From Trypanosoma brucei (taxonomy: Eukaryota), in NCBI GenBank assembly GCA_000002445.1, contig CP000067.1:928001-992000 (forward strand): a DNA stretch of 64,000 nt, read 5' to 3'. A model generated the notes under the pieces. The model was not told the origin of the DNA. It saw only the letters and a program-made list of their open reading frames with translations, and searched no databases. The position numbers and the translations under genes were made by a program. Shown in pieces: positions 17,123-45,265 of the stretch; within the stretch, counting starts at the first letter, position 1; the number at the start of each line of letters is the position of its first letter.

Positions 17123-20100
17123 AATTGGAGCACTTCTAAAGCGACTTAATCCGGAGTTCGCGAATCCCTATATCCTTGCGGAAGTGCTATTTTATTTTTT
17201 CCTACCCACTGTTGTTGCTTGACTTGTTTTCCCTCTCCGATGTCGAGGAGAGAAATTTAATTTTACGTAGAGAAAAATGGCATAGGTGTATGGTCACATT
17301 TTTTTCTGTGCGACCGCAGGGGCAGGCAGAGCAAGATGATCCACATCCACCTGTTCCTTTCTTGCAGAACTCCAACCCCGACACAGAAAGGGTTTACAAT
17401 AGATATATCGGTACTGCATCAACTGCTGCAGCTTCCGAAGGAGGTTGCAGGTGTTTACCACAAGTATAAACAAAATAAATATGTTATCGCGTGCAAAAAG
17501 CTGCTTCTTAAACGCGCAAGAAAATAAAGTCCTCTGTTAATCCTTACGCACACCTCGAAGGGGCACAAAGACATGTTACGCAGAACTACGCGAAGAAAGA
17601 CGGTATTGTATGCTATCGCCCTCCCCTATAGCCACGTTAACATAAATAGTGAAACGCTGAAATGGGTTAGTCGTGCAAACGTAACACCCCTCCCGCACAC
17701 ACTCGCTGATCCCTCCTCATATACGCCTTTACTGGGGCGGGTAACGCTGCGCACGTCACTTCACATCCCTTTGCACAATAATCTTGACGCTCTGTTTGGA
17801 CCATGTGCTTTATTTCCGTTACGGAACACTACAAAGATATAAGCACCGAATGAACAGCTGTGAGGGAATCAGTCGAGTATTCAAAAAAAAAAAATGCCCC
17901 TTCCGACTATATAAGAGCAACCACATATTCGTCAATCGATTTGTTCCTTTATACGAAATTTTCTAACTGCAAAGGTAACTACAACAACCTCATTAGTAAA
18001 CAGCTAAACAAAAAATCTACACACAAACGTCGGCACGAGAGTGCCTATGAATTGAAACAAAGAAATTACAGAATACACACCCTGACACGCAAAATACGCT
18101 CGCTCGCTGACAGCGTAGGTAGGCGGGTAAAGGACAAACCACTGTAAATATTTTATTCTTAATACCTTTTCACACACGCTGAACAAAAATGTGATAACAT
18201 CGGTAACTGTCCGCTTTAGCTTGTGTTTTTCTTTAAGATACCAGTCTCTAGTAACAGAAAGCGGTAGCTGTCCTGATTATCCTTGTGAACTACAAAATCA
18301 ACGCCATTTCGTTCCTGTAAATGGTCAGATAATGTCCACAACAGTACCAGATGGTATAATATTTGATAAAATGGCACGCAATGCGACAACTTCATGGCAT
18401 CAGACAAGCAGGACAAATCAAATACTTCCACTTCGCCATCGATGCAGATTCTGTGGCGGAAGGAGCACGGCAGCACAACGGCAAGTATTAATGCTGCGCA
18501 TTCAACGACGTGCTGTTACTTGCACTCCTCATTTATTACAACAATAGGAAATACAGAACACCACCATAACCCCTCGTAAGCGTAGTGTTTTAACTTGGAG
18601 AAATCCCACACCAAAAGATACCTGGATATTCGGAAGTTGCTATAAAAACAAACACTCTATGGGTCCAACTAAGTGTATCGTGACGATCATTTTCATTTTT
18701 TTTTTCCTAATCCAGTGAGATATGCTTCTGCTTCCCTTGATCATATGTGTTGCTTCATTTTACTCCCTGGGTTTATTACTGTTCTATGCTTGATAGCCGT
18801 TTCACCTTCGGCACAGCGAAGCATTGAGAACCGGAACGGATATAAAAGCCACTTGCGCTTGGAACGAATCATTTTCGTGAGCACCGGTGATAATAAAAGT
18901 GAATGCGGCAAACTGATGGGCATAGCAGTGACCGCCACAAAAGCAACTATAGCACGACCCCTTCTCAACATGTAAATATGGTGTCCCCCTACATAGCCCG
19001 GTGTTTTGGTGCAAGTATCCGAACGACAAAGAGTAATCAATTTCCCGTTTTTCACTACAAAAATACAAGAGAACATAAGCTAAAAATACCGGATCTCACT
19101 GTATGAATAGAAACACAATAACGTGCAAACGTGCAATGCCTTGCCAACGCGTAGCTTATGTAAAGTCATCCATTTATTTACGCAACATGAAACACACACC
19201 CTGATGTTAAAAACACAGAGGTGGGACAAACCCCCCTCCTGCGGGTACGCTGTGGTAAGGAAATAAAGACATCAGACAACGTACTGTTAATTAAAGTTAA
19301 ACGAAAGTTCATTCCGTCGCCGACTGTCAGCTCAACGCATATGTATTTTTCCAAGCAGAATCATCACAGTTTTTTTCTTGATATGGATACCATTTTATAC
19401 AATAACGGCATTAACCACGTCTTTCTCAAATGACATTGCTTCGCTATCCCAACACTAACATCTGGCAACCACTCTATGTATACTCTGTTTCACATCTACT
19501 GCGTCCTGACTCTGTGATGCAGATTATAAACCTTGGTACCGCAAAATAGAAGCTTTAATAGCACTGAACCACATAGTTACTCGAAACTACCCAACGCTTT
19601 GAACCACCGCATGCAAAAGCCGGAATGAATCAGGACATGCGTAGCATCAAGAAGTAAACATAAGCTCACGGAAGTGAAATTCAACTATTTATCGCATTGG
19701 GATAACTCGAACAATGCTCCGTTAGAGACCCACCGTATGTTTCAGTTGAACGAATACTAAAAACGCTCGGTCTCTGCTTGAAAAATTTGAAGTCCCTTCT
19801 ATATCAATAACTAAGTGGTCGCGCTTCAATAGTCGTGCGCTCCAAAAGAAAGAAGGAGAGCTAGAAATTTTTCGGTGAGTATAGTACAAGAAATTTGCAA
19901 AGAGGCATGAGTAAATGAACTTCGGGGGAATGTTTGAGCAACGAGAGTACCGTATCTGAATGCGAGGTAAGACTCAGTGTACTTGTTAGTGGCGCTTACC
20001 ATCTTCACCTGCCTTGTTGACTAGTGCTGAAAAACGAGAGGAATAAAAGTGCCGCGGGCATAAAGCCAAAAGGCAAGCCAACTTGGTAATCTATTTATTT

Positions 20101-22679
20101 TTTTAACGGAGGTATCAATAATAACTTCAACAGAGGTTGAAACGAGGATACTTAGTGTGGAAAGGGCTGATGAATACATCTAGGACGCGAACCGGTAAGT
20201 ACCTTAATTTCGGGTAAATGATAATAATAATAATAACCGTATTTCTCCAGTAGTCATACCATAAACCGAGCACATGCATAATGAGTTGTTAAAACACGCA
20301 CACTATCTTCATTGTCACCAGTGTATGACACCCAACGCTGATCAAGCGCGTAGGCAACATATTACAAACGGGTGTTAAGTTGTATGAAATATGGCACTGT
20401 TTCAAATGCTACCCCCTTCTCAACAGCGTCAGTACACCTCGCACTGCAGTCGGACGAAGGCACAGATGTGACACCCAACGTCACGGTGTTTCAACAAGAC
20501 GCTTGCAGAGCGTGCAGAAAAGTGATTCCTTTGCGGCTGTGCCTATGCGCGCACCCCATTACCATCAGTACTCCCGAACAGGAACCCACCTTCCGAGACG
20601 ACAACAACGGCTGGTATAAAGATCAACGACCATGCACTTGCCAGCGCGCAGCGGACGCAACTCATAGACCCATAAAAGCATGAATTCAATAAAACAATAG
20701 CAACACCAATGTGAAAACGTCTGCGATAGCGCCGCCACCTTCATTCACCCGGTCCACTGCACTGCGCACCGCTCCCACACCGATAGGTGCCAGAGGCATC
20801 GATGAACGACTACTTCGCAGCACCTCCAAAACGGTTTTAGACAGAAATTAGCAGGGCCGCCGGCTCGCCCGGGCACTAAAGCAATCCCTTAAACTACCTG
20901 AAACCTGGCGGAAGACCCCACGGAAACGCACGGGCGGAGGCCTACAGAGAAAGGCGCCCCGCTACGCACAGGCGCCCTCGCCGGCTCACAAAAAGGAAAC
21001 CATGCGTACCTCCCACTCACGAGACACACCACAACCGCCGAACCCCATACCGTGTGGACGTCCCCCGCGCGCAGGGGGAACCACGGGTTTACTGCTGCAG
21101 TCCCGTCACCCCAGCAGCGAACACGCGGATCCCTCGCGATAGCCGAAAACAAAGCAGAGGGAAATGACTCGCGTCTGTCGGGGCCGCGGACGCCAGCGCC
21201 TCAACAGGTCAACTTTGGGCAGAACCTCCTCAGGTCGGGGACGTCAAGAGCCCCCACGTGGCACCGGGGTTGAGTACATCATTAAAGGGGAGGCCAAACG
21301 ACTGTTCGCACCCTGTCATCAGGGAGACATGGCAGCTCGCCGGCTGTTGGTTGTTGGGGTAATGGGAGAAGTGGAAACGATATTGGCTCCCTGATGTGGG
21401 AACCGATATCTTTGTTGTCCCTTGCACGCTCTTGCATGTTCCCGTGGGCGTGTAGGGGCAACTCCCGTTGTGGAGAAGATATCAGAGGCAACTGTAATTC
21501 ACCTACTGGCGTATGGTAAGGGACTGTCTCTTCAAATTTTTTTGGGGGAAAAGGAAGGCTTCTTTTGCGTTTTGAAGGGGACATACATCCACGCGACGAA
21601 GAAGTGAACTGCAAAATGATGCCTGTATTTCCGGAGCATTGATATAGCAAACCCTTCTAGGGGTTGACGAGTGTCAAAATCGGCAGAAAATAGCACAGGT
21701 AGAATGCAAGGCTCGTAACAAAATGGGGACTGGAAGAGTGCCAGCTAAACCGAAACTCGCTCAGGAGTAGTGGAACACACTCGTGTCAATATTTTTCTGT
21801 GGCCAAATCTGGAATCACCTGACCACTACTGGAAGGTTGCATGGAAGAGATAGTTTGAAGGTTTGCAGAAAGGCAATGGAGTAGCAATTCGACGAAGGAG
21901 GAAACTTAAATACCCCACATATCACGCGGAATGCTGCCTTGGAATAGGATTCCGCAGAATATGAGGGATAAATGTTATTGCCGCCTGAAGGAATAATAGT
22001 CACTTATAGGGATAGGGGTTTACGATGGGAATTAGGCAGTTCCTTCAGCTGTTGGAAGTTTTGAAGCAAATAGACAAGACAGAAAAAACAATGAACTTCC
22101 TGAGGAATCAGAGCAGGCAATGCAAAAGGCACTGACCGAAGCGCAGAGTAGAACACGATACAAATGTAGATGGTGCGATTATTAGCGTGTTCATGTGTCG
22201 GGGCCCATTCTGCACACAAGGAACAAACACTCGGTGGAAGTTGGAATGAAAAAAGATACAAATGATAAAGCATCTCCGGCATCAAAGACAGCTCCAAAGA
22301 CCCTCCAACGCTCGCAGTACAAAATGCGTGCAACAAAGTGACCTCACTGAACTCATGCAGCGGAAAGGCGAATGCAAAATAGGAAAAAAAGCACAACACT
22401 GTAAAAAGTGGGTACTACTCATCTTCCCTAAAACCGTCACAACACCCCTCCCCAGGAAGCGCTGCGTAGAGAAAGCGGTCGAAAATGCCGCAAACAGATG
22501 GTTGCCGTTTCGCATGCAACTGGCACGTTTCCATGCAAGCTATTTCAACCAAAGGATTTGGAGCTAAACACAGAGGAGCGTCAACAGACTCAAGATAACT
22601 GTCAAAGGAATTCACACTGAAACGACCATGGGTTGGGAAAAAGGAAAAGGGGGACTACTTCGCCGACGGCCAAGCCTAC

Positions 22680-25600
22680 CTACATTCCGCCACGCCATAC
22701 TTTGAAGAACCCGGCGTGTGAGTGCTGCTTGCGGCCGAGGGCACACAACTCATTGGCGCAAAAGGTGACAGTCACGCGGCGGTGTGGAACCGCACGATTC
22801 GATCAGATACTAGGGGAATAACTTTACTGCGGCGCCATGTCGGTAAGTAGCTTCGGGCCAACAAAAAACTGGCGATAGCACCAAGTGTGCGTGCCAACAT
22901 CGGGAGCTCACACCTGATGCGTCACCCCTCAAGGGAAGTGCGGGGCGCACCAATGGATGTCATAGAACTTCACCGAGCAGTGATGGTCAACATCTCCTCG
23001 ATATGAGTGTGTGGAACGTACGGGGTGAGCCCATTCGCCAACAGCTTCTCTGCATTCGTAGACCAAATCCAAACGGAGAAATTTTCTCAGGACAGCCGAC
23101 GAACTCTGACGGAAGAATTGGAACTGGTGGAACGCGCACGAATTGGAGAAATGTCTGAGGTGCGGCATCCGTGTTGCAACCGCAGGGGTTGTTCCTTGAA
23201 TCACAGCCACACCACAACACTCAACACCTCAACTTACTAAACTCGATAAGGGGATTGCGAGGTGTCATCGCTCATTGAATGGGGGAACTGGTCGACATGC
23301 AGAGGTAGCTTCCAGGCCGCATGACAAATGAAGGGTGTTTCGTGCCGTTCTGAGAGCACAAGGCTCCGGTCCGTTGCAACTGGTGCGTCAAGAAAGTGTA
23401 CGCGTCGGGGCCATTCAACCTCCTGGCGGCTATATGAGACGGTGCTCCAAAACCGACTACCGGCAGGAGAAACATTTCGTTGATCCCTACGCGCCCCGGG
23501 CAACAGATTACTTATCCTCGCCCTTAAGGCATTCGACGTGAGTTTATGGAATGGAATCGTACCTGCTGCACGGGAGAGTTATCAATAATTTCCATACAGA
23601 AACACCCTAAGAAGGTGGAGCGTTTGGATGTCCACGAGGCGGTGAAAGCGATGAGTTGCGCGCGCAAAGCCATCGAGAACATCGTTGGTAATGGAATTGG
23701 GGACTTTATGAGGGAGGGGCCCACACTAGAACCGGGATTTCGGCCGGGTCGCCCCACGCTAAGGCTGCTTCAGCGCTTCCAGATGGCCCTTGGTCACCCG
23801 TCGCCGTCGCACATGGGAGCGGCATTCATAGTTTACGCGAATGCCTTGGATGTCACACGGAAAGCGGCTGATGGTTTTATTTTACAGCAGAATGAAAGGA
23901 ACAAAAGTTGGCAAAACACTGTTAAACAGCCGGACGCTTGCAAGAGGCATAAAGCAACTGCATCAGAGCGCACTGTGCCCCTCAGCCTCGGACTCGCAGA
24001 GCCAACTCTTGGAAGCATTTCCGCTATCACATGACGGCTTTTTTGCGGATAATTTGGCGCTATCGGCGCGATGCACGAAGAGGGACCCCGAAGACCGCAC
24101 ACCGCAGGGCAGCCCCGGCGTTGTGATACAATGGCAGCAAAAGTGACTTATGTACGCCCGCACGCCGGTGACGAAATGCAAACTGCTCAGTTACATTGAA
24201 CACTTATCGTCAATGTAACATCACGGTGGGGCTCGGGCTGGGGTTGGAAAAGTACCGAAGATGTTTTGGGACGGCGCGCTGCGCAAACACAGCGAATAGC
24301 AAGCCGCAGGGCGCTGAAAATAGAAACCGTTTGGGCGACGGCGTATCACCCAGATGAGGCGTTGCGTGCTTTACACTTCCGGTTTTTACAATTACGTGAC
24401 ACGTGCAGAGCTGATGTGTGGCATTAGTGCGTCTCAGAAGGTATTCGAGAGGCGACCGGAGCGGAGCGGCACAAAGACAGCCAAACCATCGAGGATGTAT
24501 CGCACGCGCACTATACAACCCCACCCGTAACTTCGTGCCGGGACGGAAGCCGCTGATCCAAACTTCTCCAACGCCTTCCTTTTCAATGCAACAGGGCCTT
24601 CCGCGGGAAGATAAGGCCCGTGTGCGCAAACTGTCCCGGAGAGGCTTAGATCGGCGAATGGACATTCTTAAACCAGAGGTCCGGCCAGACCCTCAGCCCA
24701 AGTGAGGACGAAAAAACGATACATCAGGTCAACAAAAGCGGCGGCGCACTTGCACGTGGGCGCTGTGTAGGACCCCTTGCACTGGCGGTGGGCCTGCGAA
24801 AGGCACCGAATCCCTTCCTAATTCACAAGGCGGTGCTGCCCAGCCTCTCGATATACCCGCTTTCGTTCTCCACCATGCCGGAGGCGAGCGCAGTTACCAT
24901 TACTGACCCGTCCCTGCACAAATTGCGGTGGTCAGCTGTGACAATACCGGGCAGGAACAATTGCATTAGACCACAGTTTGTACTCCCCTGCTGCGGCGTG
25001 GCATTGAACGAAGGCGCGCGGCGAAATTGCGAAGAATGTCGTTGGCATGTCACAGTTGCCCGACCGGGGGTTTGCAGACACCGCGGCCTATTCGAAGCGT
25101 TTGTTGTGATCTGGGGAAATATACTCGGGGGCCCACCGGGACACATTTCACGACCAAATGCAAAGAATGGATGCGCGGGCCGACAGCGTTGGCTGGCACT
25201 GCTGGTGGTCGCCGCACAAAATCAACTCATGGGTGGCCCGTTCCACCGGTGGCAGGAACCGTAATTTCCACTGGCGACGCTTGCACCCCAACCAATCCCA
25301 ACGACCACGACCTCGGTGTTAACAACCTTCTTTCACGCTGAGGGACAAAAAAGGTGTACTAATTGCGGTGCGATATGGCAAACACCGAACGAGTGCAGTG
25401 ACGAATATGGCGGCGGATCTTCTGGCGTAGGCGCGTTCTTTTGAAAAATGAAATGCGGTGATGCGTCGCGTCCAGCGTATGATCCATCAGAACCCATGCA
25501 ACCGCGGCCCGTACTGGCGCCTTCGCGAGTATCAACAACAGCAAGCCTCAACACTAAACATTCAAAGGCGTCACGACGGCACCACCTTCGCAGCCACATT

Positions 25601-26200
25601 TGTGATACAAAGCAATCGGTTCGCGAGCTAAACAGGTCTTGAATTGAAAAGCAGGATGCAAGATGTAAAGCAATAACTACAAGACAGCGCATCTACCGCA
25701 AGAAAACATTGTTTTACCCAACAAGCTACCATGCCCCGGAGGCAACATAGCCAACACCAAACGACACCGCCATCCTGCAGAAGTTCTGCTTCTCCGGTCG
25801 CCTTGAATAACTTCAACTCACCACAAAACGACTCCAGCGCTTGACGCCACTCTTAGCTACGACTATTGAAAAACAGGGTAAACAGGAACAAAAATCATAC
25901 AGCACCCCCATTAACAAGAGAATAGACAGAAAAAACTAAGCAACAAACAAAGAAGTGGAAAAGTAGGCAAGTCAGCAAGTCTAACATCTAGCATCGCCTC
26001 CTCACCCTTCAACAAACACACACCCAAAAGACAAAACAATGCACGAAAAATATTCACATCAGCAAAAGAAAAAAAACCAAAAATACAAAATAAAGAAAAA
26101 AACAACATTTATCAGCGGTGAAGAGAACGGTACAACTAAAGAAAAAACAAGAATAAAAAAAGACACAATCAACAAACACAAAACATATTAAAACCAGCGA
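22680..26200 (+). mobile_element. Degenerate non-LTR retrotransposon remnant (ingi/DIRE-like), left arm of the palindrome
   Basis: The ORF fragment 23546..24034 (+) keeps recognisable non-LTR RT motifs. These are 'EPGFRPGRPT' (motif 3, Q.GFR.GRS) followed by 'AAFIVYANALDV' (motif 4, h.D..KAFD.V). The surrounding sequence is GC-rich and heavily stop-interrupted. The RT reads toward the satellite array. Confidence 0.5.
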
Positions 26201-29200
26201 CAAATGGGTATGATTGTGCAACACTGTTTTTGCACAATCATACGCATAAACGCGTATTTGACGTGAAAATACGCAATAGTGCACAATTTGCACACAAACA
26301 TGCCACATTGTGCATGTTATGCAAGAATGCGTGTTTTGCACCAAAACACCTTACATATTGCATTGCAACACTGTTTTTGCGCAATCATACGCATGAACGC
26401 GTATTTGACGTGAAAATACGCAATAGTGCACAATTTGTGAACAAACATGCCACATTGTGCATGTTATGCAAGAATGCGTGTTTTGCACCAAAACACCTTA
26501 CATATTGCATTGCAATACTGTTTTTGCACAATCATACGCATAAACGCGTATTTGACGTGAAAATACGCAATAGTGCACAATTTGCACACAAACACGCCAC
26601 ATTGTGCATGTTATGCAAGAATGCGTGTTTTACACCAAAACACCTTACATATTGCATTGCAACACTGTTTTTGCGCAATCATACGCATGAACGCGTATTT
26701 GACGTGAAAATACGCAATAGTGCACAATTTGCACACAAACATGCCACATTGTGCATGTTATGCAAGAATGCGTGTTTTACACCAAAACACCTTACATATT
26801 GCATTGCAACACTGTTTTTGCACAATCATACGCATAAACGCGTATTTGACGTGAAAATACGCAATAGTGCACAATTTGCACACAAACATGCCACATTGTG
26901 CATGTTATGCAAGAATGCGTGTTTTGCACCAAAACACCTTACATATTGCATTGCAACACTGTTTTTGCGCAATCATACGCATAAACGCGTATTTGACGTG
27001 AAAATACGCAATAGTGCACAATTTGCACACAAACATGCCACATTGTGCATGTTATGCAAGAATGCGTGTTTTACACCAAAACACCTTACATATTGCATTG
27101 CAATACTGTTTTTGCACAATCATACGCATAAACGCGTATTTGACGTGAAAATACGCAATAGTGCACAATTTGCACACAAACACGCCACATTGTGCATGTT
27201 ATGCAAGAATGCGTGTTTTACACCAAAACACCTTACATATTGCATTGCAACACTGTTTTTGCGCAATCATACGCATGAACGCGTATTTAACGTGAAAATA
27301 CGCAATAGTGCACAATTTGCACACAAACACGCCACATTGTGCATGTTATGCAAGAATGCGTGTTTTACACCAAAACACCTTACATATTGCATTGCAACAC
27401 TGTTTTTGCGCAATCATACGCATGAACGCGTATTTGACGTGAAAATACGCAATAGTGCACAATTTGCACACAAACACGCCACATTGTGCATGTTATGCAA
27501 GAATGCGTGTTTTACACCAAAACACCTTACATGTTGCATTGCAACACTGTTTTTGCGCAATCATACGCATAAACGCGTATTTGACGTGAAAATACGCAAT
27601 AGTGCACAATTTGCACACAAACACGCCACATTGTGCATGTTATGCAAGAATGCGTGTTTTACACCAAAACACCTTACATGTGGCATTGCAACACTGTTTT
27701 TGCGCAATCATACGCATAAACGCGTATTTGACGTGAAAATACGCAATAGTGCACAATTTGCACACAAACACGCCACATTGTGCATGTTATGCAAGAATGC
27801 GTGTTTTACACCAAAACACCTTACATATTGCATTGCAACACTGTTTTTGCGCAATCATACGCATGAACGCGTATTTGACGTGAAAATACGCAATAGTGCA
27901 CAATTTGCACACAAACACGCCACATTGTGCATGTTATGCAAGAATGCGTGTTTTACACCAAAACACCTTACATGTTGCATTGCAACACTGTTTTTGCGCA
28001 ATCATACGCATAAACGCGTATTTGACGTGAAAATACGCAATAGTGCACAATTTGCACACAAACATGCCACATTGTGCATGTTATGCAAGAATGCGTGTTT
28101 TGCACCAAAACACCTTACATATTGCATTGCAACACTGTTTTTGCACAATCATACGCATAAACGCGTATTTGACGTGAAAATACGCAATAGTGCACAATTT
28201 GCACACAAACATGCCACATTGTGCATGTTATGCAAGAATGCGTGTTTTACACCAAAACACCTTACATATTGCATTGCAATACTGTTTTTGCACAATCATA
28301 CGCATAAACGCGTATTTGACGTGAAAATACGCAATAGTGCACAATTTGTGAACAAACATGCCACGTTGTGCATGTTATGCAAGAATGCGTGTTTTACACC
28401 AAAACACCTTACATGTTGCATTGCAACACTGTTTTTGCGCAATCATACGCATAAACGCGTATTTGACGTGAAAATACGCAATAGTGCACAATTTGCACAC
28501 AAACATGCCACATTGTGCATGTTATGCAAGAATGCGTGTTTTGCACCAAAACACCTTACATATTGCATTGCAACACTGTTTTTGCACAATCATACGCATA
28601 AACGCGTATTTGACGTGAAAATACGCAATAGTGCACAATTTGCACACAAACATGCAACATTGTGCATGTTATGCAAGAATGCGTGTTTTACACCAAAACA
28701 CCTTACATATTGCATTGCAACACTGTTTTTGCGCAATCATACGCATGAACGCGTATTTGACGTGAAAATACGCAATAGTGCACAATTTGCACACAAACAT
28801 GCCACATTGTGCATGTTATGCAAGAATGCGTGTTTTGCACCAAAACACCTTACATATTGCATTGCAACACTGTTTTTGCACAATCATACGCATAAACGCG
28901 TATTTGACGTGAAAATACGCAATAGTGCACAATTTGTGAACAAACATGCCACATTGTGCATGTTATGCAAGAATGCGTGTTTTGCACAAAAACACCTTAC
29001 ATGTTGCATTGCAACACTGTTTTTGCGCAATCATACGCATGAACGCGTATTTGACGTGAAAATACGCAATAGTGCACAATTTGTGAACAAACATGCCACA
29101 TTGTGCATGTTATGCAAGAATGCGTGTTTTGCACCAAAACACCTTACATGTTGCGTTGCAACACTGTTTTTGCGCAATCATACGCATGAACGCGTATTTG

Positions 29201-29765
29201 ACGTGAAAATACGCAATAGTGCACAATTTGCACACAAACATGCCACATTGTGCATGTTATGCAAGAATGCGTGTTTTGCACCAAAACACCTTACATATTG
29301 CATTGCAACACTGTTTTTGCGCAATCATACGCATGAACGCGTATTTGACGTGAAAATACGCAATAGTGCACAATTTGTGAACAAACATGCAACGTTGTGC
29401 ATGTTATGCAAGAATGCGTGTTTTGCACCAAAACACCTTACATATTGCATTGCAACACTGTTTTTGCGCAATCATACGCATGAACGCGTATTTGACGTGA
29501 AAATACGCAATAGTGCACAATTTGTGAACAAACATGCAACGTTGTGCATGTTATGCAAGAATGCGTGTTTTGCACCAAAACACCTTACATATTGCATTGC
29601 AACACTGTTTTTGCACAATCATACGCATGAACGCGTATTTGACGTGAAAATACGCAATAGTGCACAATTTGTGAACAAACATGCCACATTGTGCATGTTA
29701 TGCAAGAATGCGTGTTTTGCACAAAAACACCTTACATATTGCATTGCAACACTGTTTTTGCACAA
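26200..29765. repeat. 147-bp satellite, about 24 head-to-tail copies (candidate centromeric repeat, CIR147-like)
   Basis: The period is exactly 147 bp (for example 'tgttttt' at 26225 recurs at 26372). The unit is 'tgtttttgcacaatcatacgcataaacgcgtatttgacgtgaaaatacgcaatagtgcacaatttgcacacaaacatgccacattgtgcatgttatgcaagaatgcgtgttttgcaccaaaacaccttacatattgcattgcaacac'. Because 147 = 3 x 49 and one frame lacks stops, a spurious 1229-aa ORF appears (26230..29919 +). Confidence 0.95.
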
Positions 29766-32700
29766 TCATACCCATTTGTCTCTGGTTTCAATATGTTTTG
29801 TGTTTGTTGATTGTGTCTTTTTTTATTCTTGTTTTTTCTGTAGTTGTCCCGTTCTCTTCACCGCTGATAGATGTTTTTTTTTCTTTATTTTGTATTTTTG
29901 GTTTTTTTTCTTTTGCTGATGTGAATATTTTTCGTGCATTGTTTTGTCTTTTGGGTGTGCGTTTGTTGAAGGGTGAGGAGGCGATGCTAGATGTTAGACT
30001 TGCTGACATGCCGACTTTTCCACTTCTTTGTTTGTTGCTTAGTTTTTTCTGTCTATTCTCTTGTTAATGGGGGTGCTGTATGATTTTGGTTCCTGTTTAC
30101 CCTGTTTTTCAGTAGTCGTAGCTAAGAGTGGCGTCAAGCGCTGGAGTCGTTTTGTGGTGAGTTGAAGTTATTCAAGGCGACCGGAGAAGCAGAACTTCTG
30201 CAGGATGGCGGTGTCGTTTGGTGTTGGCTATGTTGCCTCCGGGGCATGGTAGCTTGTTGGGTAAAACAATGTTTTCTTGCGGTAGATGCGCTGTCTTGTA
30301 GTTATTGCTTTACATCTTGCATCCTGCTTTTCAATTCAAGACCTGTTTAGCTCGCGAACCGATTGCTTTGTATCACAAATGTGGCTGCGAAGGTGGTGCC
30401 GTCGTGACGCCTTTGAATGTTTAGTGTTGAGGCTTGCTGTTGTTGATACTCGCGAAGCCGCCAGTACGGGCCGCGGTTGCATGGGTTCTGATGGATCATA
30501 CGCTGGACGCGACGCATCACCGCATTTAATTTTTCAAAAGAACGCGCCTACGCCAGAAGATCCGCCGCCATATTCGTCACTGCACTCGTTCGGTGTTTGC
30601 CATATCGCACCGCAATTAGTACACCTTTTTTGTCCCTCAGCGTGAAAGAAGGTTGTTAACACCGAGGTCGTGGTCGTTGGGATTGGTTGGGGTGCAAGCG
30701 TCGCCAGTGGAAATTACGGTTCCTGCCACCGGTGGAACGGGCCACCCATGAGTTGATTTTGTGCGGCGACCACCAGCAGTGCCAGCCAACGCTGTCGGCC
30801 CGCGCATCCATTCTTTGCATTTGGTCGTGAAATGTGTCCCGGTGGGCCCCCGAGTATATTTCCCCAGATCACAACAAACGCTTCGAATAGGCCGCGGTGT
30901 CTGCAAACCCCCGGTCGGGCAACTGTGACATGCCAACGACATTCTTCGCAATTTCGCCGCGCGCCTTCGTTCAATGCCACGCCGCAGCAGGGGAGTACAA
31001 ACTGTGGTCTAATGCAATTGTTCCTGCCCGGTATTGTCACAGCTGACCACCGCAATTTGTGCAGGGACGGGTCAGTAATGGTAACTGCGCTCGCCTCCGG
31101 CATGGTGGAGAACGAAAGCGGGTATATCGAGAGGCTGGGCAGCACCGCCTTGTGAATTAGGAAGGGATTCGGTGCCTTTCGCAGGCCCACCGCCAGTGCA
31201 AGGGGTCCTACACAGCGCCCACGTGCAAGTGCGCCGCCGCTTTTGTTGACCTGATGTATCGTTTTTTCGTCCTCACTTGGGCTGAGGGTCTGGCCGGACC
31301 TCTGGTTTAAGAATGTCCATTCGCCGATCTAAGCCTCTCCGGGACAGTTTGCGCACACGGGCCTTATCTTCCCGCGGAAGGCCCTGTTGCATTGAAAAGG
31401 AAGGCGTTGGAGAAGTTTGGATCAGCGGCTTCCGTCCCGGCACGAAGTTACGGGTGGGGTTGTATAGTGCGCGTGCGATACATCCTCGATGGTTTGGCTG
31501 TCTTTGTGCCGCTCCGCTCCGGTCGCCTCTCGAATACCTTCTGAGACGCACTAATGCCACACATCAGCTCTGCACGTGTCACGTAATTGTAAAAACCGGA
31601 AGTGTAAAGCACGCAACGCCTCATCTGGGTGATACGCCGTCGCCCAAACGGTTTCTATTTTCAGCGCCCTGCGGCTTGCTATTCGCTGTGTTTGCGCAGC
31701 GCGCCGTCCCAAAACATCTTCGGTACTTTTCCAACCCCAGCCCGAGCCCCACCGTGATGTTACATTGACGATAAGTGTTCAATGTAACTGAGCAGTTTGC
31801 ATTTCGTCACCGGCGTGCGGGCGTACATAAGTCACTTTTGCTGCCATTGTATCACAACGCCGGGGCTGCCCTGCGGTGTGCGGTCTTCGGGGTCCCTCTT
31901 CGTGTATCGCGCCGATAGCGCCAAATTATCCGCAAAAAAGCCGTCATGTGATAGCGGAAATGCTTCCAAGAGTTGGCTCTGCGAGTCCGAGGCTGAGGGG
32001 CACAGTGCGCTCTGATGCAGTTGCTTTATGCCTCTTGCAAGCGTCCGGCTGTTTAACAGTGTTTTGCCAACTTTTGTTCCTTTCATTCTGCTGTAAAATA
32101 AAACCATCAGCCGCTTTCCGTGTGACATCCAAGGCATTCGCGTAAACTATGAATGCCGCTCCCATGTGCGACGGCGACGGGTGACCAAGGGCCATCTGGA
32201 AGCGCTGAAGCAGCCTTAGCGTGGGGCGACCCGGCCGAAATCCCGGTTCTAGTGTGGGCCCCTCCCTCATAAAGTCCCCAATTCCATTACCAACGATGTT
32301 CTCGATGGCTTTGCGCGCGCAACTCATCGCTTTCACCGCCTCGTGGACATCCAAACGCTCCACCTTCTTAGGGTGTTTCTGTATGGAAATTATTGATAAC
32401 TCTCCCGTGCAGCAGGTACGATTCCATTCCATAAACTCACGTCGAATGCCTTAAGGGCGAGGATAAGTAATCTGTTGCCCGGGGCGCGTAGGGATCAACG
32501 AAATGTTTCTCCTGCCGGTAGTCGGTTTTGGAGCACCGTCTCATATAGCCGCCAGGAGGTTGAATGGCCCCGACGCGTACACTTTCTTGACGCACCAGTT
32601 GCAACGGACCGGAGCCTTGTGCTTTCAGAACGGCACGAAGCACCCTTCATTTGTCATGCGGCCTGGAAGCTACCTCTGCATGTCGACCAGTTCCCCCATT

Positions 32701-33300
32701 CAATGAGCGATGACACCTCGCAATCCCCTTATCGAGTTTAGTAAGTTGAGGTGTTGAGTGTTGTGGTGTGGCTGTGATTCAAGGAACAACCCCTGCGGTT
32801 GCAACACGGATGCCGCACCTCAGACATTTCTCCAATTCGTGCGCGTTCCACCAGTTCCAATTCTTCCGTCAGAGTTCGTCGGCTGTCCTGAGAAAATTTC
32901 TCCGTGTGGATTTGGTCTATGAATGCAGAGAAGCTGTTGGTGAATGGGCTCACCCCGTACGTTCCACACACTCATATCGAGGAGATGTTGACCATCACTG
33001 CTCGGTGAAGTTCTATGACATCCATTGGTGCGCCCCGCACTTCCCTTGAGGGGTGACGCATCAGGTGTGAGCTCCCGATGTTGGCACGCACACTTGGTGC
33101 TATCGCCAGTTTTTTGTTGGCCCGAAGCTACTTACCGACATGGCGCCGCAGTAAAGTTATTCCCCTAGTATCTGATCGAATCGTGCGGTTCCACACCGCC
33201 GCGTGACTGTCACCTTTTGCACCAATGAGTTGTGTGCCCTCGGCCGCAAGCAGCACTCACACGCCGGGTTCTTCAAAGTATGGCGTGGCGGAATGTAGGC
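29765..33300 (-). mobile_element. Degenerate non-LTR retrotransposon remnant, right arm (inverted copy of 22680-26200)
   Basis: Mirror-image ORF fragments occur on the opposite strand. For example, 31944..32432 (-) is identical to 23546..24034 (+). Also, 30162..30350 (+) equals 25628..25816 (-), and 32738..32971 (-) equals 23007..23240 (+) with two substitutions. Coordinate sums are constant at about 55978, giving a symmetry centre near 27989. Confidence 0.5.
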
Positions 33301-36300
33301 GGGGGCGATGATTTGCAGCATGTCGTGTAGTAGGCGGATGGTGCCCTGAGGATGTTCGGCGTGCCCATTCACCTTGCTCACGGTTCTACTGGCAAGTTTT
33401 CTATGACGAACACGTGAATACGCCGCTACCTTTTTACAACGGTAAACTGTGCTGTGAGATGTTGGTGGTCGGCAACACCAAAACGATCGATCCCCGCAGC
33501 TTCTGTTCTCGTTTTAGTAAAAAGACAGAACATTGCCGAAACAACCATGGGTGTTTTGTAGAGTATCTACCTCTTTACTTGAAGGAGCCCGGCGCAGTTC
33601 CATCGCATCCGACGCAACGATGGACCGGGATTCTTCACATCACCAAATCTGAGTGTCCTCATGCGATTGATACTGATAATAATGCCGTGCCGCCAGCTCG
33701 GGGGGTTGAGGGGGCTAACGTGTCCCAGCGCGACACTACTGCTTCGTGTGCCATCCGATACTCTGGTTAGGGTGGTAAAGACAGAAGGGGCTTGCCCTTG
33801 GTGAGAAATCCAACTCAGTCAGGCCATGTGCCGACACATGCTTCCCCTTTTTTGAACTTATCCGGCAGTTGCAATGTGTCAGAGTATTTTCGTCCATTTT
33901 GTACATTCGCCTTCAAGCCTCATGGGGGTGATGCAACTCCGTAGGGTGGGACCCATGTCCAGGGTACTTGATTTATGAGGTGCTCCTCAACCACCGATTT
34001 TGGAACACCATCCCTCCACAGGACCCAGTTATTCTTGCGTTGGATGGTTGTGCGGGTACAGTTGCTCTTCTATGGCCGCGGGCCGCCCTGCTCCTGTTTG
34101 GAGCGCGGCGGTAGCATACAATTGCCCTCTCACTTGCCACTTTCTTAACAGATTTCAGCTACCCTCCTTTGACTGCGTTTCGTGTGCTTGCCATACAGTG
34201 AAACTCCAGTAATCCGATTCTCCGCCCGAAGTTGCATGTTCTATATATTTTTTTTTGAAATTTTCTTCGTGCCTTCGTGAGAGTTTCCCCACACTGGCGC
34301 GGCCATCAGCCATCACCGTAGAGCCCTGAGATGCTATCGGTCTGGCGACTGTGGCAGATTCTCCCTTTTTTTATTCATCCTAACACACTCTCTATAATTT
34401 TTGCTGTATTTCCGCAGTTGAACGGAATACAGCAGATGGGGCGACAAGCCTCCCACCCTGGACTCTCCCAAAGATGTCAATTAGCAATCCTTTTTTGGAG
34501 TTCCACATCACCGGACAGCAGCATCTTAGTGCGGATGATACTGCTGATGGCACGCTGGCACGTGCCCAGGGACCGACAAATGAAGAACGGTGTCCCAGCA
34601 AGACGCTGCTGATCCCTGTGCTGTATGATGCCGTAGCCGGAGCAAAGCAGTGTTCCCCATGAAAGGAACGCTGTTGGCTCTTGGCTTCCCCCGATGATAC
34701 GAGGTACTGGACTCTGACACCACGTTGAGGTGGCCGGCATCGCCAGGGTGTTCTATATATTCTCCCCAGCGGGAGGCGAGGCTGATAAGCACTACGCGGC
34801 GATACCAAGGTGCGTCTCTACTCGGATAAATCCTGTGTGAAAGCCTCTCAGCGCTTCCTAGTGACTCCACTTGGGTGATGCCACTTACCCTATGTGCGGT
34901 AATATCGTTCTTGCCAACTTTGCTCCTTGTCCAACGTGATTCGACCCTCTTCTCAGTGGCCGCAAATCGAGGCTTGAGGGATTTTTTTTTTTCGCATCGC
35001 TCACCCCGACCCCGCCACGTGAAAGGCACATGGATCCCAAGTGCGGACCCCGAATGGCGGACGCCCCGTTCTTTTTCCTCTTCGGAATCTCCATAAGTTG
35101 CTTCTTTCACCACTCGACCACGCCCTCCAGCCCTTGGTGTGGCGTCTCCATCGGTTTCGCCATGTCCAAGATCGTTGCGGTGATGTTCAGATCACAAGCG
35201 AATAAACTATCCCCGAGTCACGGGGTTTCATTTACCTCCACACTCTGCCTTCCCACCGTCACGTTTAAAAGAATGAGACTTGGACAATGATACCGGGGGA
35301 AAAAGCGCATCCCGGCATTGCATTATTGGACAAGGCGCTGTTTGTTCTAACCGTTTCAGTTTATTTTATAAACAGCAAAATATTTGTCTGCCGTGTCAGG
35401 CATGAGTTTACTTTGAACCGCCGCAGCACGCGGGGGAAGCGTCGCAGTCCAAAAAATCGCTAACACATTACTCATAAATAAGCACTACAGCGCCGCGCTT
35501 CTCCTTCCCCAGGACCAATCATATTCATTGCCTATCTAGTGGAGCTGATGCCGAATACTCGTGGTCGGAAGCCGAGCTGCTGCTCCATAGAGCCTTTAAA
35601 AATCCTTATTGCGGGTTCTTCAACGAGTTCGTACACAGTGCTAGTTAATATCGCCGACTGAGGCGAAACAATGCCCTCAGCCGATTCGTTTTATCCAATG
35701 GATGGTACGATGATCATCTCCCCCGCTACTCAGGAGGCTTGTTTAATCTCCGGAAACGATCGTAGAGGTAAAGGAATATGCCCTGCTAATTCCACCCATC
35801 TTCCCTGCCTTCTCAGAATAAATCTCGCCTTTCCCAATCGCAGTTCGTCCTGACGATTCCTGTCGCTTTTATCAACTTAGTGTGTTCAAACAATTCAAAC
35901 ACGCCGCCCTTGGTCATGGAAATACTCACTGGAGGGACTTCCAGATCCCCCCTGGCACGCTTCGCATACATATCAGCTTGCGTCTCCTGTTACCTCTTCG
36001 TCAATGGATGTCCGCATACTGTTGGCACCGGGGGCGGGGTGACGGACGCGACGAAATCCCTAACTTAACCAGTCTCCAGTCTTCGTTTTCGGTAGATGAT
36101 GGTTTTGAGGCACTTTGTTGCCGTGCTGGTGCGGTAGTGTCGGTCACCGTCACCTTTCTTGGGTCAACGCGGGGCAGCCCTTTCGCCAAAAGTGTGCGTG
36201 AGTGTGGGTTGTTTGTGGTGCCATGTGGTAGATTACGTATGCGATAACTCCCTTGATCTAGCTGGCTCCTGCGATCACTTTTACCCCCTTTATCCTCTTA

Positions 36301-39300: not shown

Positions 39301-40711
39301 AAGTATCAGAAAAAATTAACCGAGCACGAGTTGGTTAAAACGAGCATGCACATGGTCATTACTTACAGCAATCGTACTTGGGTTGAGGAAAAAAAAATAA
39401 AAAGAATAGCGGCACCTTGGAACGCAAGGCGCCTCGAAGCGATCATTGTGTTAGAGTGCTGACGGCGACCTCAACCACCACAGTATGTTATCAGGCGATG
39501 GTGCTTTGCTTAGGTAGGGATGTCAAATCTCTACCACGCACTACACCAGCTTTTCGGCACGGTAGAAAGTTGGCGAGCGCCAACTAACAGTCAAATACAC
39601 GACAAGCCGGTTATCAGATGGGACATTCTCTTCGGAGTCGTCTAGGAGCATGTGCATTTCTCTGCACCGGCAGCTGTACACAAATGTTAAAGCCGAAAAG
39701 TTAGCATTGAACAACTGGATATATCTAGGAGCTTGGGCGAAATATGGAGATCATGTCATCAGAACAACACTTCTGCGCTGGCTGCAATCCTGTCACGCAA
39801 AGCAATGTAAGCCTTACTTCCTTTTGACAGATCACATAACTTCAATGATGACGCAGACTCCTCTGCTGCTGCATGTTCCAACAATATGCTACAGACTATA
39901 ATTTCTGCATGAACTGCAGTGACGCCGCAATGATATACCATGGCATATTCTAACACTCATTCTTGCATGATCTCTCGTACTTCCGACAACATCAGGCAAG
40001 TTTTGAGCATTCGTCGTCAACAAAAATTCGTGTTTGTTTCTACTAGCACTACCGCCGACGTTCGTGGAGGTGTTATTCATCCGCTTCACACCAGCACAAG
40101 TGCTTCGTACTGTCGCGGACACGGCAATACCTAAAACAGGTTCGCTCGCGGTCTCCCCACCTCCACTTCCTCGCGGATTATTCTTTCTGCCTGCCCACTG
40201 GGGCGCAGTCGAACTAAGGAGACGGGCATATCCATTTGCACTTCGACTGCCCCGCGATACAACTGCCCCAACAGCCAAGGGACCACACAACACGGGACAC
40301 AGTGCTCGGCATCACTTTCCCAGTTCCCCTTTCCTTTTTCAATTCCGCCGCTGCGGTCAACCGACTAAACTTCCGTGGGGGATCGTCGGCATGTTGAGTG
40401 CCTACGGGCGCGCACGACTGCCCCGCGTGTCTACATCTGCGCAAGCTAACCCCGAGGCAAGAGGCGTGACCCCACAACACCCGGGGGCGTGCAACTGCTT
40501 CCCGCCCCACTTCGGACCCGATTGACAAGGCGTCACCGCAGTTGAAGAACATCAGGCCTCCACCGGGGCCGATCGAAACCTTTCAGCGTCCCTTAAGTCC
40601 GTAACGTCCTACCGTGCGGACGGGTGGCCCCTACCCAGTAGCTGATCCGCAGGCGCAAACCAGCGCAGAGGGAAGGGGGTTTGACACTCCTGTGATACCT
40701 CATGCGGTCGA

Positions 40712-40911
40712 GGGCCAACGCAAGCATGATGGTAGCGGCGGGGTGGAGCTCCGCGAACGTATTTTCTTCATAACTCATCCTCAGCCGATGAGAAGCAGCA
40801 TTTGTACTGTGGCACGCGATCTTCCAGAGCCACTTATCAATATAACAGATGAGAAAGTGACCCTCGGTTTCTCATCCATATTACCGGGGAGCTGGTCCTT
40901 AATACCGCAGC
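40712..40911 (+). repeat. Left copy of a roughly 200-bp inverted repeat pair
   Basis: This sequence is the reverse complement of 44834..45032 at about 97% identity. Both copies keep an open frame: 'RKHDGSGGVELRERIFFITHPQPMRSSICTVARDLPEP(L/F)INITDE(K/R)VTLGFSSILPGSWSLIPQRN'. Confidence 0.85.
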
Positions 40912-43900: not shown

Positions 43901-44833
43901 GCGACGTTTGAGGCGAATATGGGGTGTTATTGCCCTATGCGGCGTGTTCATTTTGACTTATACCCACAACGACATTGATGTGGTGGCTACAAGCTCACAT
44001 GTCTCTTCGTGCCTAGAGTTTCAAAAAAGAAAAAAAAAGGAAACATGGCTATACTGTTGTTAGTATCATTTGTTAGTAGAAATATCTCTTATGTTTTTTT
44101 GTGACCAGAAAAAGCTTCGCAATAATGTCTAATATAGTATTCCTTGTACCGCTGTTTTGCATAGGGGTTGTTTTCATCAACTTTCTCCCTTTGTAGAGGT
44201 CTTAAAAGATTGTGAGGCAACGTGTAAGCGCACACAGACAACCAGCCAGCCGTGAGGGGGATTCAAAGGGAGGTGGTCTTGTATTTTTGTCTATAGGATG
44301 CGGAGGAGTGCACTTACCAGAGCGAGATGCCACTGAATGGTACAAAGTTTCTGGTGATTCTTGTTTCAACGCTACCAAAAGCAACACTGTATATTCCCTA
44401 GCGTTCAAACTCTACACGCTAGCGGTGGAGGCGTTCCGTGTTGAATGCCTTGAAGAATCACCTGGTAGAGGTGTGAATTACACCAATGCGGCGAGGCACT
44501 CGACGAAAAGGACAATATATGGCGGTACCGAATACATGTATTTCGATGAACATGGGTGTGCACACAAAGTTTAATCGCGCCGTTGCGCGGGGAGCATCGA
44601 GATTCCGTCATTGCCTATCGTTCACTTTCTTTTTTTAAATGAGGATATACACTGTAGAATATACGAATGCTCTGTCAGCACGGGGTGACCGCTAGAGGGA
44701 CTACGCATTAAAGGTCATCACATAACTCTACAAAAAGCCGCTTCACTGACTGAGTTATCGCTAACAAAGCTTTGCATGTCCTGTGTGTGTGAGTCGCTAA
44801 TGCAAAACTGCAGAGGTCGCTTGGTTTCATGAC

Positions 44834-45032
44834 AATTTCGCTGCGGTATTAAGGACCAGCTCCCCGGTAATATGGATGAGAAACCGAGGGTCACTCTCTC
44901 ATCCGTTATATTGATAAATGGCTCTGGAAGATCGCGTGCCACAGTACAAATGCTGCTTCTCATCGGCTGAGGATGAGTTATGAAGAAAATACGTTCGCGG
45001 AGCTCCACCCCGCCGCTACCATCATGCTTGCG
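44834..45032 (-). repeat. Right copy of the roughly 200-bp inverted repeat pair, about 230 bp upstream of the adenylate cyclase ORF
   Basis: See the left copy. Homology breaks abruptly at both ends: 'aataccgcagcgaaat' at one end and 'cgcaagcatgatgg' at the other. Confidence 0.85.
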
Positions 45033-45265
45033 TTTATGTTTGGATGCTTTGGAGGGTGACAGTAAGGTACTGCGCATGTACGCTAGGGGAAGACCTGTTT
45101 GCGATTGAAGGGTGTGTGTGTCTTGGCGCAGTTGCGTCTCGAATCCTTTGACAATTTTCCCAGCGCATAAACATTTTATTAGGGTCTCTGGATCTGGGAT
45201 GTCTCTGAGGTGCCACCGTACCTGTCGATGTCACGAGGTAGACGTTTCAAACTTAGGTTGCTCCA

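What the first reader, a model, noticed from the sequence alone, without database searches (positions are those of the whole stretch)
17123..45265. Candidate regional centromere: 147-bp satellite at the exact centre of a retroelement palindrome, inside a 28-kb gene-free divergent strand-switch region
Three properties coincide here. First, the gene desert is unusually long and sits between diverging transcription units. Second, it holds a nucleosome-length (147 bp) tandem satellite. Third, the satellite is flanked by degenerate ingi/DIRE-like retroelements. This combination is what has been described for T. brucei centromeres (topoisomerase-II cleavage sites and KKT kinetochore-protein enrichment on 147-bp arrays bordered by decayed retroelements). 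If the source genome is annotated, this locus probably is, or lies next to, a centromere. If it is an unannotated or related species, it is a strong centromere prediction. The assembled array (about 3.5 kb) is probably collapsed relative to reality.
Basis: partly seen in the sequence, partly recalled or inferred. Interest (0 to 1): 0.75.

Follow-up and report, generated by a model that had tools for sequence, protein, structure and literature searches.

The report
Known T. brucei chromosome 4 centromere

Summary
A CIR147 array lies at 26217-29771: 24.2 units of 147 bp, 60.8% AT. Two inverted arms of about 3.54 kb, 99.4% identical, abut it on both sides. All of this sits in a 28,143-bp stretch with no recognisable gene, between diverging genes. 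The flanking proteins match T. b. brucei TREU927 FAZ1 (XP_844524) and GRESAG4 adenylate cyclase (XP_844525) exactly. Together with Tb927.4.3760 (XP_844526), named in the source record, these consecutive accessions correspond by inference to Tb927.4.3740 and Tb927.4.3750, the ORFs published as bracketing the chromosome 4 centromeric array. Published size (3.5 kb), unit (147 bp), AT content (61%) and 'head-to-head DIREs' all fit. Published work already shows topoisomerase-II cleavage, KKT2/KKT3 enrichment, early replication, siRNA production and a true array size near 70 kb. Side results from comparing assemblies: the arms evolve in concert; the array and its junctions are flipped in the T. b. 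gambiense assembly relative to TREU927 and T. b. equiperdum (real inversion or assembly choice, unresolved); the same arm flanks the gambiense chromosome 5 centromere; RIME insertions differ between strains. Homology searches could not confirm that the arms derive from a retroelement.

The parts
12044..17122 (-). FAZ1 gene (inferred Tb927.4.3740), the last gene of the minus-strand cluster left of the centromere
   Evidence: Exact match to XP_844524.1/AAZ10965.1, flagellar attachment zone protein 1, TREU927. Obado 2007 Table 1 names Tb927.4.3740 as the left flanking ORF. The gene-number assignment is inferred from consecutive accessions.
17123..45265 (.). 28,143-bp strand-switch region with no recognisable gene; it holds the centromere
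   Evidence: Flanking genes have consecutive protein accessions. 28 ORFs of 100 aa or more have no Pfam hit. No Rfam families or tRNAs.
22679..26221 (+). Left (FAZ1-side) palindrome arm. Annotated in the literature as a DIRE. Its A-rich end abuts the array.
   Evidence: Inverted repeat at 99.44% over 3543 nt. 'Head-to-head DIREs' in Obado 2007. RT-like motifs seen by eye in plus-strand frames. Homology searches negative.
26208..26221 (-). 14-nt inverted CIR147 fragment (GTATGATTGTGCAA) at the left, L-type junction. It overlaps the first 5 nt of the direct array.
   Evidence: Read directly from sequence. The same junction occurs on gambiense chromosome 5 and on the GRESAG4 side of gambiense chromosome 4.
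26217..29771 (+). CIR147 centromeric satellite: 24 units of 147 bp plus 27 nt, 60.8% AT, all in one orientation. The assembled copy is collapsed.
   Evidence: Published array 3.5-3.6 kb in the assembly and about 70 kb in reality. KKT2/3 enrichment on the array.
29758..33299 (-). Right (GRESAG4-side) palindrome arm with the R-type junction
34250..34748 (-). RIME non-LTR retroposon, a TREU927-specific insertion with a 12-13-bp target-site duplication (34237-34249 and 34749-34761)
   Evidence: Absent from gambiense and equiperdum at this site. Sequence, duplication and T-run. Pr77-type 5' end at 34718-34748 with 0 mismatches (the pattern was recalled from memory).
45266..49090 (+). GRESAG4 receptor-type adenylate cyclase (inferred Tb927.4.3750), the only plus-strand gene right of the centromere
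   Evidence: Exact match to XP_844525.1. Pfam adenylate cyclase domains.

Best explanation
This is the regional centromere of Trypanosoma brucei brucei TREU927 chromosome 4.

Shown by published experiments. The kinetoplastid kinetochore (KKT2 and KKT3 tested) assembles on the CIR147 array. Topoisomerase II cleaves here in the presence of etoposide. The locus is among the earliest-replicating on the chromosome. CIR147 repeats yield DCL2-dependent siRNAs. The real array is about 70 kb, so the 3.6 kb assembled here is a collapse.

Shown here. The array is bracketed by two inverted 3.5-kb arms that evolve in concert. The same arm and junction flank the chromosome 5 centromere in T. b. gambiense. 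RIME retroposons have inserted recently and differently in different strains.

Inferred. The arms are 3' parts of degenerate ingi-related elements, duplicated in inverted orientation and kept alike by gene conversion. How KKT proteins recognise the array is unknown. The unit's modest excess of short dyad symmetries is compatible with a role for DNA structure but does not demonstrate one.
For: Identity: exact matches to TREU927 XP_844524 (FAZ1), XP_844525 (GRESAG4) and XP_844526 (named Tb927.4.3760) on a 1,590,432-bp record.

Repeat: period 147, 24.2 copies, with the published CIR147 TALE target once per unit, 60.8% AT and 3,555 bp. The published figures are 61% AT, 3.5 kb, 147 bp, between Tb927.4.3740 and Tb927.4.3750, with head-to-head DIREs. 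If the window starts at 928,001, the array falls at 954,217-957,775, against the published 954,159-957,772.

Function, from papers: topoisomerase-II cleavage; KKT2/KKT3 ChIP-seq on the arrays of chromosomes 1, 2 and 4-8; KKT2 and 147R-TALE ChIP on the chromosome 4 array in Lister 427; replication peaks of highest amplitude at mapped centromeres; CIR147 siRNAs; true size about 70 kb.

Architecture is conserved: gambiense has the same 28.2-kb spacing and the same palindrome boundary, and equiperdum shows the same arm, junction and array.

Concerted evolution: with chromosome 5 as outgroup, 10 sites are derived in both gambiense arms plus equiperdum, and 5 sites are derived in both TREU927 arms.
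Against: Nothing argues against the identity.

Limits on the details: none of the functional evidence was generated here; it comes from papers. Seven searches failed to show homology between the arms and reverse transcriptases. Only one Pr77 hallmark is in the window, and it is in the RIME, not in the arms. The assembled array is known to be collapsed, so its copy number, internal order and possibly its orientation do not reflect the real chromosome. The DNA fold z-score of the unit is only -2.7, with 4 of 200 shuffles as good.
Confidence: 0.97

Rival explanations
1. The locus is an RNAi-targeted satellite and strand-switch region only. Kinetochore position would be set by something other than the CIR147 array, such as an epigenetic mark or flanking sequence, with the array as a passenger.
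For: On chromosome 3 the KKT peak lies beside the repeats, not on them. T. cruzi centromeres have no satellite (title and abstract). CIR147 is a major siRNA source.
Against: On chromosome 4 the KKT2/3 enrichment coincides with the array itself. KKT2 and a CIR147-directed TALE co-localise on it in another strain. There is a single array per chromosome, at the topoisomerase-II site.
Confidence: 0.1
2. The palindrome, or the single-orientation array between its arms, is an assembly artefact of a collapsed repeat region.
For: The array is collapsed about 20-fold. The gambiense and equiperdum assemblies have 100-N gaps inside it. Arms 3.5 kb long and over 99% identical are longer than Sanger reads. 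Tschudi 2012's survey of large inverted repeats in TREU927 does not list this one.
Against: Both arms, with the same outer boundary and both junction types, recur in the independent gambiense assembly. Equiperdum, which breaks inside the array, shows the GRESAG4-side arm with the R-type junction. The arms carry arm-specific SNPs, 19 in TREU927 and 11 in gambiense. The L-type junction also occurs on gambiense chromosome 5. Obado 2007 describes the same layout.
Confidence: 0.05
3. The opposite orientation of the array and its junctions in T. b. gambiense DAL972 is an arbitrary orientation choice by the assembler, not a biological inversion.
For: The flipped unit is exactly the whole palindrome. 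Only the outermost part of each arm links it to unique DNA, and the arms are over 99.5% identical in gambiense. DAL972 is a Sanger-era assembly (my own knowledge).
Against: Arm-specific SNPs travel with junction type. The gambiense FAZ1-side arm (R-type) differs from the equiperdum GRESAG4-side arm (R-type) at 5 sites, against 14 for the gambiense GRESAG4-side arm. A real inversion predicts this, but so does a mis-oriented contig.
Confidence: 0.5

Closest known systems
T. brucei CIR147-class centromeres (chromosomes 4, 5, 8; related repeats on 9, 10, 11)
   Same: This is the chromosome 4 member itself. It has the same 147-bp unit and TALE target, the same flanking ORFs, the same size and AT content in the reference assembly, and DIRE/ingi-type elements beside the array.
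   Different: Nothing differs. Details not mentioned in the papers I could search: the arms are 99.4% identical, they evolve in concert, and the arm is shared with the chromosome 5 centromere.
Centromeres flanked by inverted repeats: S. pombe imr repeats (cited in Obado 2007) and the homogenised inverted repeats of Candida tropicalis (my own knowledge)
   Same: A kinetochore-binding centre is bracketed by kilobase-scale inverted repeats that stay nearly identical within a chromosome.
   Different: The centre here is a tandem satellite, not a unique core. Kinetoplastids have no CENP-A and use KKT proteins (and its abstract). The chromosome 5 centromere of gambiense shows only one arm, so the palindrome is not a general requirement in this species.
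T. brucei minichromosome 177-bp repeat palindromes (Wickstead 2004, cited)
   Same: Tandem repeats with an inversion point. KKT proteins are enriched on them.
   Different: In minichromosomes the repeat array itself is palindromic with a central inversion point. Here the assembled array runs in one direction, and only 14 nt of inverted unit sit at one junction. The repeat families differ, and CIR147 is absent from small chromosomes.
Human alpha-satellite and other regional satellite centromeres
   Same: An AT-rich satellite of roughly nucleosome length, bordered by retroelements, tens of kb or more, and homogenised.
   Different: No higher-order repeat period is visible in the 24 assembled units. 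Obado 2007 reports no divergence gradient towards the edges. The kinetochore proteins are unrelated.

Membership tests
T. brucei CIR147-class regional centromere | Tandem array of about 147-bp AT-rich units matching the CIR147 consensus | tested here: met
   Period 147, 24.2 copies, 97% matches. The published CIR147 TALE target occurs once per unit, 24 hits against 0 expected. 60.8% AT.
T. brucei CIR147-class regional centromere | Lies in a region separating directional gene clusters | tested here: met
   Minus-strand ORFs up to 17122 and a plus-strand GRESAG4 from 45266. The plus-strand side is only one gene long.
T. brucei CIR147-class regional centromere | Position between Tb927.4.3740 and Tb927.4.3750 (the mapped chromosome 4 site) | tested here: met
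   Exact matches to XP_844524 and XP_844525, followed by XP_844526, which the source names Tb927.4.3760. Obado 2007 Table 1. The two flanking gene numbers are inferred from the consecutive accessions.
T. brucei CIR147-class regional centromere | [quoted passage not shown] | tested here: met
   A RIME with target-site duplication and Pr77-type 5' end lies at 34250-34748. The arms themselves are annotated as DIREs in the literature, but see the DIRE rows below.
T. brucei CIR147-class regional centromere | Etoposide-induced topoisomerase-II cleavage at the site | not testable with these tools
   Published as positive for chromosome 4 (Obado 2007).
T. brucei CIR147-class regional centromere | Enrichment of kinetochore proteins KKT2/KKT3 | not testable with these tools
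   Published as positive on the chromosome 4 array (Akiyoshi & Gull 2014; eLife 2026).
T. brucei CIR147-class regional centromere | Single array per chromosome, absent from mini and intermediate chromosomes | not testable with these tools
   Within the window the unit occurs only in the array. The genome-wide statement comes from papers.
DIRE (degenerate ingi/L1Tc-related element), for the palindrome arms | Detectable remnants of the ingi/L1Tc reverse transcriptase or endonuclease ORF | tested here: inconclusive
   Pfam on stop-masked frames and on a stitched 290-aa sequence found nothing. The PDB search found nothing. Two searches of 5.8 billion proteins found only the same ORF in equiperdum. 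The exhaustive phmmer search found only that ORF and one spurious repeat protein. Motifs EPGFRPGRPTL, AAFIVYANALDV and GFFADNLAL resemble non-LTR RT boxes by eye only.
DIRE (degenerate ingi/L1Tc-related element), for the palindrome arms | Pr77 (77-79 bp) hallmark at the 5' end | tested here: not met
   At up to 3 mismatches the only Pr77-type match in the window is in the RIME at 34718-34748. The arms look 5'-truncated, which would remove it. The pattern was recalled from memory.
DIRE (degenerate ingi/L1Tc-related element), for the palindrome arms | Dispersed, multi-copy element | tested here: met
   The same 4.1-kb sequence (window 22066-26221) is on gambiense chromosome 5 at 96-99% identity. 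However, that copy is also next to a CIR147 array, so this could be a centromere-specific segmental duplication and not transposition.
RIME retroposon (34250-34748) | About 500 bp, ingi-type 5' hallmark, A-tail, target-site duplication, insertion polymorphism | tested here: met
   499 bp, T-run on the plus strand, 12-13-bp duplication, Pr77-type end. The site is empty in gambiense and equiperdum. A 95.4% identical copy is inserted elsewhere in gambiense.
Inverted-repeat-flanked centromere (S. pombe / Candida tropicalis type) | Kinetochore-binding centre bracketed by near-identical inverted repeats | tested here: met
   Arms of 3543 nt at 99.44% abut the array. Concerted evolution of the arms.
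Inverted-repeat-flanked centromere (S. pombe / Candida tropicalis type) | The inverted repeats are needed for centromere function | not testable with these tools
   No experiment is known to me. The gambiense chromosome 5 centromere shows one arm only, which argues against a general requirement.

The most novel reading that the evidence does not exclude
The two 3.5-kb arms may form an active recombination system. Gene conversion keeps them nearly identical, and crossing-over between them flips the whole centromeric array, so that T. b. gambiense carries the array in the opposite orientation to TREU927 and T. b. equiperdum, and both isomers might coexist in populations. The arm and junction are also exchanged with the chromosome 5 centromere, which Micro-C data show clustering with centromere 4. 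Centromere flanks in a CENP-A-less eukaryote would then behave like the homogenised inverted repeats of fungal centromeres.
Probability: 0.3. Interest if true: 0.4.

Novelty: already known. Interest (0 to 1): 0.12.

Why it matters
As a discovery it does not matter. This centromere has been mapped, sized and shown to bind kinetochore proteins since 2007-2014.

That could help with unannotated Trypanozoon or related genomes.

The side results would be of modest interest to people working on centromere evolution in organisms without CENP-A, if long reads confirm them. These are concerted evolution of the arms, a possible flip of the array between subspecies, and an arm shared by centromeres 4 and 5.

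Tried and rejected
1. Proving the arms are retroelement remnants. The minus-strand frames of the arm were not scanned as whole frames; only three of their ORFs were.

2. Using the stop-free ORF through the array to pull CIR147 loci from other assemblies found nothing.

3. Exact look-ups of TREU927 proteins in the contig index failed, because that genome is not indexed there. One cluster look-up was largely wasted by trimming the stop codon at the wrong end of minus-strand ORFs; it was redone.

4. I first read the gambiense FAZ1-side arm as 'more like the TREU927 right arm'. The four-arm and six-arm comparisons showed this simply reflects more private mutations in the TREU927 left arm. In the gambiense/TREU927 comparison only the junctions and array orientation differ. 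Arm SNPs do, however, track junction type when gambiense is compared with equiperdum (5 against 14 differences).

5. Short-read Logan contigs carrying arm ORFs all end inside the arm and cannot resolve orientation.

6. Rfam and tRNA scans of the whole window found nothing.

7. No higher-order repeat is evident in the 24 units. Units up to 5 positions apart differ slightly less (about 3.9 differences) than more distant ones (about 5).

8. I considered a coding function for the 1229-aa ORF in the array and rejected it. It follows from a 49-codon unit with one stop-free frame, and no homologues exist.

Full report
**Observation**

Tandem Repeats Finder reports one 147-bp array at 26217-29775, with 24.2 copies and 97% matches. 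Phasing it gives 24 full units plus 27 nt (26217-29771), 15 variable columns, 60.8% AT and no obvious higher-order period. The repeat search found an inverted pair at 22679-26102 / 29876-33299. Gapped alignment extends it to 22679-26221 / 29758-33299, 3543 nt at 99.44%, with 19 mismatches and one gap in the 3525-nt core. The arms touch the array on both sides, so the array is at the centre of the palindrome (27989.5 against 27994).

The interval 17123-45265 runs exactly from the start codon of the last minus-strand gene to the start codon of the first plus-strand gene. Outside the array its longest ATG ORF is 162 aa. None of 28 ORFs of 100 aa or more hits Pfam, while the neighbouring adenylate cyclase does. 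There are no Rfam families or tRNAs.

**Identity**

The 1692-aa protein at 12044-17122 matches T. b. brucei TREU927 XP_844524 (flagellar attachment zone protein 1) exactly. The 1274-aa protein at 45266-49090 matches XP_844525 (receptor-type adenylate cyclase GRESAG4) exactly. The 401-aa protein at 53586-54791 matches XP_844526, which the source names Tb927.4.3760. All three are on a 1,590,432-bp record. The consecutive accessions imply that FAZ1 and GRESAG4 are Tb927.4.3740 and Tb927.4.3750.

Obado et al. 2007 (PMC1868937) list the chromosome 4 AT-rich array as 3.5 kb, 147-bp units, 61% AT, between Tb927.4.3740 and Tb927.4.3750. [quoted passage not shown] Echeverry et al. 2012 (PMC3292466) give coordinates 954159..957772. 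If the window begins at 928,001, the array falls at 954,217-957,775.

The published target of the CIR147-directed TALE, TTGACGTGAAAATAC (PMC12975129), occurs once in every unit: 24 hits, one of them with a single mismatch, against none expected by chance. The window therefore contains the reference-genome copy of the chromosome 4 centromere.

**Function (from the literature, not generated here)**

- Etoposide-induced topoisomerase-II cleavage on chromosome 4 is concentrated in this region.
- KKT2 and KKT3 ChIP-seq give one strong peak per megabase chromosome. For chromosomes 1, 2 and 4-8 the peak lies on the AT-rich array (PMC3978658).
- In Lister 427, KKT2 and the 147R-TALE co-localise on the chromosome 4 array, and no CIR147-related repeats are on intermediate or minichromosomes.
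- The replication peaks of highest amplitude coincide with the mapped centromeres (PMC3607257).
- CIR147 yields 8.6% of Argonaute-bound small RNAs, dependent on DCL2 (PMC3447711).

Its refutation condition is not met.

**Retroelements**

I could not show homology between the arms and any reverse transcriptase. The only real hit is the same 162-aa ORF annotated in T. b. equiperdum. Motifs resembling non-LTR RT boxes are visible by eye on the plus strand of the left arm. That would put the A-rich 3' ends against the array, but this is a resemblance and not a test. The arms lack a Pr77 hallmark.

By contrast, 34250-34748 is a clear RIME. It is 499 bp, on the minus strand, with a T-run on the plus strand, a 12-13-bp target-site duplication and a Pr77-type 5' end. 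The site is empty in gambiense and equiperdum. A 95% identical RIME sits inside one gambiense arm.

**Comparison with other assemblies**

*T. b. gambiense DAL972 chromosome 4* (FN554967.1; L001-L003) has the same FAZ1-GRESAG4 spacing of about 28.2 kb, the same outer palindrome boundary, and a CIR147 array containing a 100-N gap.

The two array-arm junctions differ. Both begin GACAAATGGGTATGATTGTGCAA. The L-type continues into the array in direct orientation (CACTG...), and the R-type continues in inverted orientation (AAACAGTG...). So the L-type junction contains 14 nt of inverted unit and a switch at a 5-nt microhomology.

- In TREU927 the L-type junction is on the FAZ1 side.
- In gambiense it is on the GRESAG4 side.
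- In the T. b. equiperdum assembly (CM010675.1; L006) the GRESAG4 side is R-type, as in TREU927.

Arm SNPs go with junction type: the gambiense FAZ1-side arm differs from the equiperdum GRESAG4-side arm at 5 sites, against 14 for the gambiense GRESAG4-side arm. The whole palindrome is therefore flipped in the gambiense assembly. A real inversion by crossing-over between the arms and an arbitrary contig orientation both predict this, and I cannot separate them.

*Concerted evolution.* With the chromosome 5 copy as outgroup, 10 sites are derived in both gambiense arms and in equiperdum, and 5 sites are derived in both TREU927 arms. That requires gene conversion between the arms.

*Gambiense chromosome 5* (FN554968.1, 165-186 kb; L007) lies near the position where the chromosome 5 centromere is mapped in TREU927 (197,919-199,815). 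It carries the same arm, extended 613 bp outwards (window 22066-26221), the L-type junction and a CIR147 array, but no second arm in the 3.8 kb of sequence held beyond the array. Centromeres 4 and 5 cluster in Micro-C (PMC11666725).

**DNA structure**

The consensus unit, folded as single-stranded DNA, gives -31.3 kcal/mol against -22.9 +/- 3.1 for shuffles (z = -2.7; 4 of 200 shuffles as good), through five short hairpins. This is suggestive at most.

**Verdict**

The locus is already known in detail, so interest as a finding is low. The papers I could search note the head-to-head DIREs but not their 99.4% identity, their concerted evolution, the orientation difference in gambiense or the arm shared with centromere 5. 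Tschudi 2012's table of large inverted repeats omits this one. These are modest additions that need long reads to confirm.

Noticed in passing
window 26208-26221 and 29758-29771; L002 about 850-870; L003 about 17915-17930; L007 about 13945-13960: The two array-arm junctions share GACAAATGGGTATGATTGTGCAA and then diverge into direct (L-type) or inverted (R-type) CIR147. The L-type junction holds 14 nt of inverted unit, with a switch at a 5-nt TGCAA/TTGCA microhomology. It is conserved on gambiense chromosomes 4 and 5, so it is old and not an assembly artefact.
   Followed up: partly
L002/L003 (T. b. gambiense FN554967.1) versus window 22679-33299; L006 (T. b. equiperdum CM010675.1): The array with both junctions, and the arm-specific SNPs, are flipped relative to the outside genes in the gambiense assembly compared with TREU927 and equiperdum. 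This is either a real inversion between the arms or an assembly orientation choice.
   Followed up: partly
window 22679-26203 / 29776-33299 and the orthologous arms in L002, L003, L006, L007: The arms evolve in concert. With chromosome 5 as outgroup, 10 sites are derived in both gambiense arms (and in equiperdum) and 5 sites are derived in both TREU927 arms. The TREU927 FAZ1-side arm carries 12 private substitutions.
   Followed up: yes
L007 9806-16456 (T. b. gambiense chromosome 5, FN554968.1 about 175-182 kb): The chromosome 5 centromere carries the same arm (96-99% identical, extending 613 bp further out than the chromosome 4 palindrome), the same L-type junction and a CIR147 array. No second arm appears in the 3.8 kb held beyond the array.
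   Followed up: partly
window 34250-34748; L003 16941-17442: RIME insertion polymorphisms. One RIME with a 12-13-bp target-site duplication is present only in TREU927. A 95% identical RIME sits inside the GRESAG4-side arm only in gambiense. Retroposition into the centromere flank is therefore recent.
   Followed up: yes
window 26230-29919: One reading frame of the CIR147 array has no stop codons (147 bp = 49 codons), which gives a spurious 1229-aa ORF. The DAL972 gene calls include 466-aa and 568-aa products through its array. No homologues were found.
   Followed up: yes
window 40717-40916 and 44835-45034: A 200-bp inverted pair at 98.5% identity, 3.9 kb apart. The right copy lies 230 bp upstream of the GRESAG4 start codon. 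ORFs across it have no Pfam hit. Its origin is unexplained.
   Followed up: no
window 12530-14089: A 42-bp (14-aa) tandem repeat, 37 copies at 95% matches, inside FAZ1. The gambiense protein is 56 aa longer, which equals four repeat units.
   Followed up: no
window 49091-53585 and 54800-58600: GRESAG4 is the only plus-strand gene right of the centromere; genes from 53586 onward are on the minus strand, making a convergent switch. The intergenic stretch at 54.8-58.6 kb is very AT-rich (GC about 28%) and full of low-complexity microsatellites.
   Followed up: no
L006 14742-20489 (T. b. equiperdum CM010675.1): The scaffold has a 100-N gap 2.1 kb into the CIR147 array and continues with an unrelated tandem-repeat gene sequence, so this assembly does not span the centromere.
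   Followed up: partly
window 21341-21678; L007 2695-3026: A 340-bp stretch outside the palindrome is 74.6% identical to sequence in the chromosome 5 centromere flank of gambiense. It may be another decayed dispersed element.
   Followed up: no
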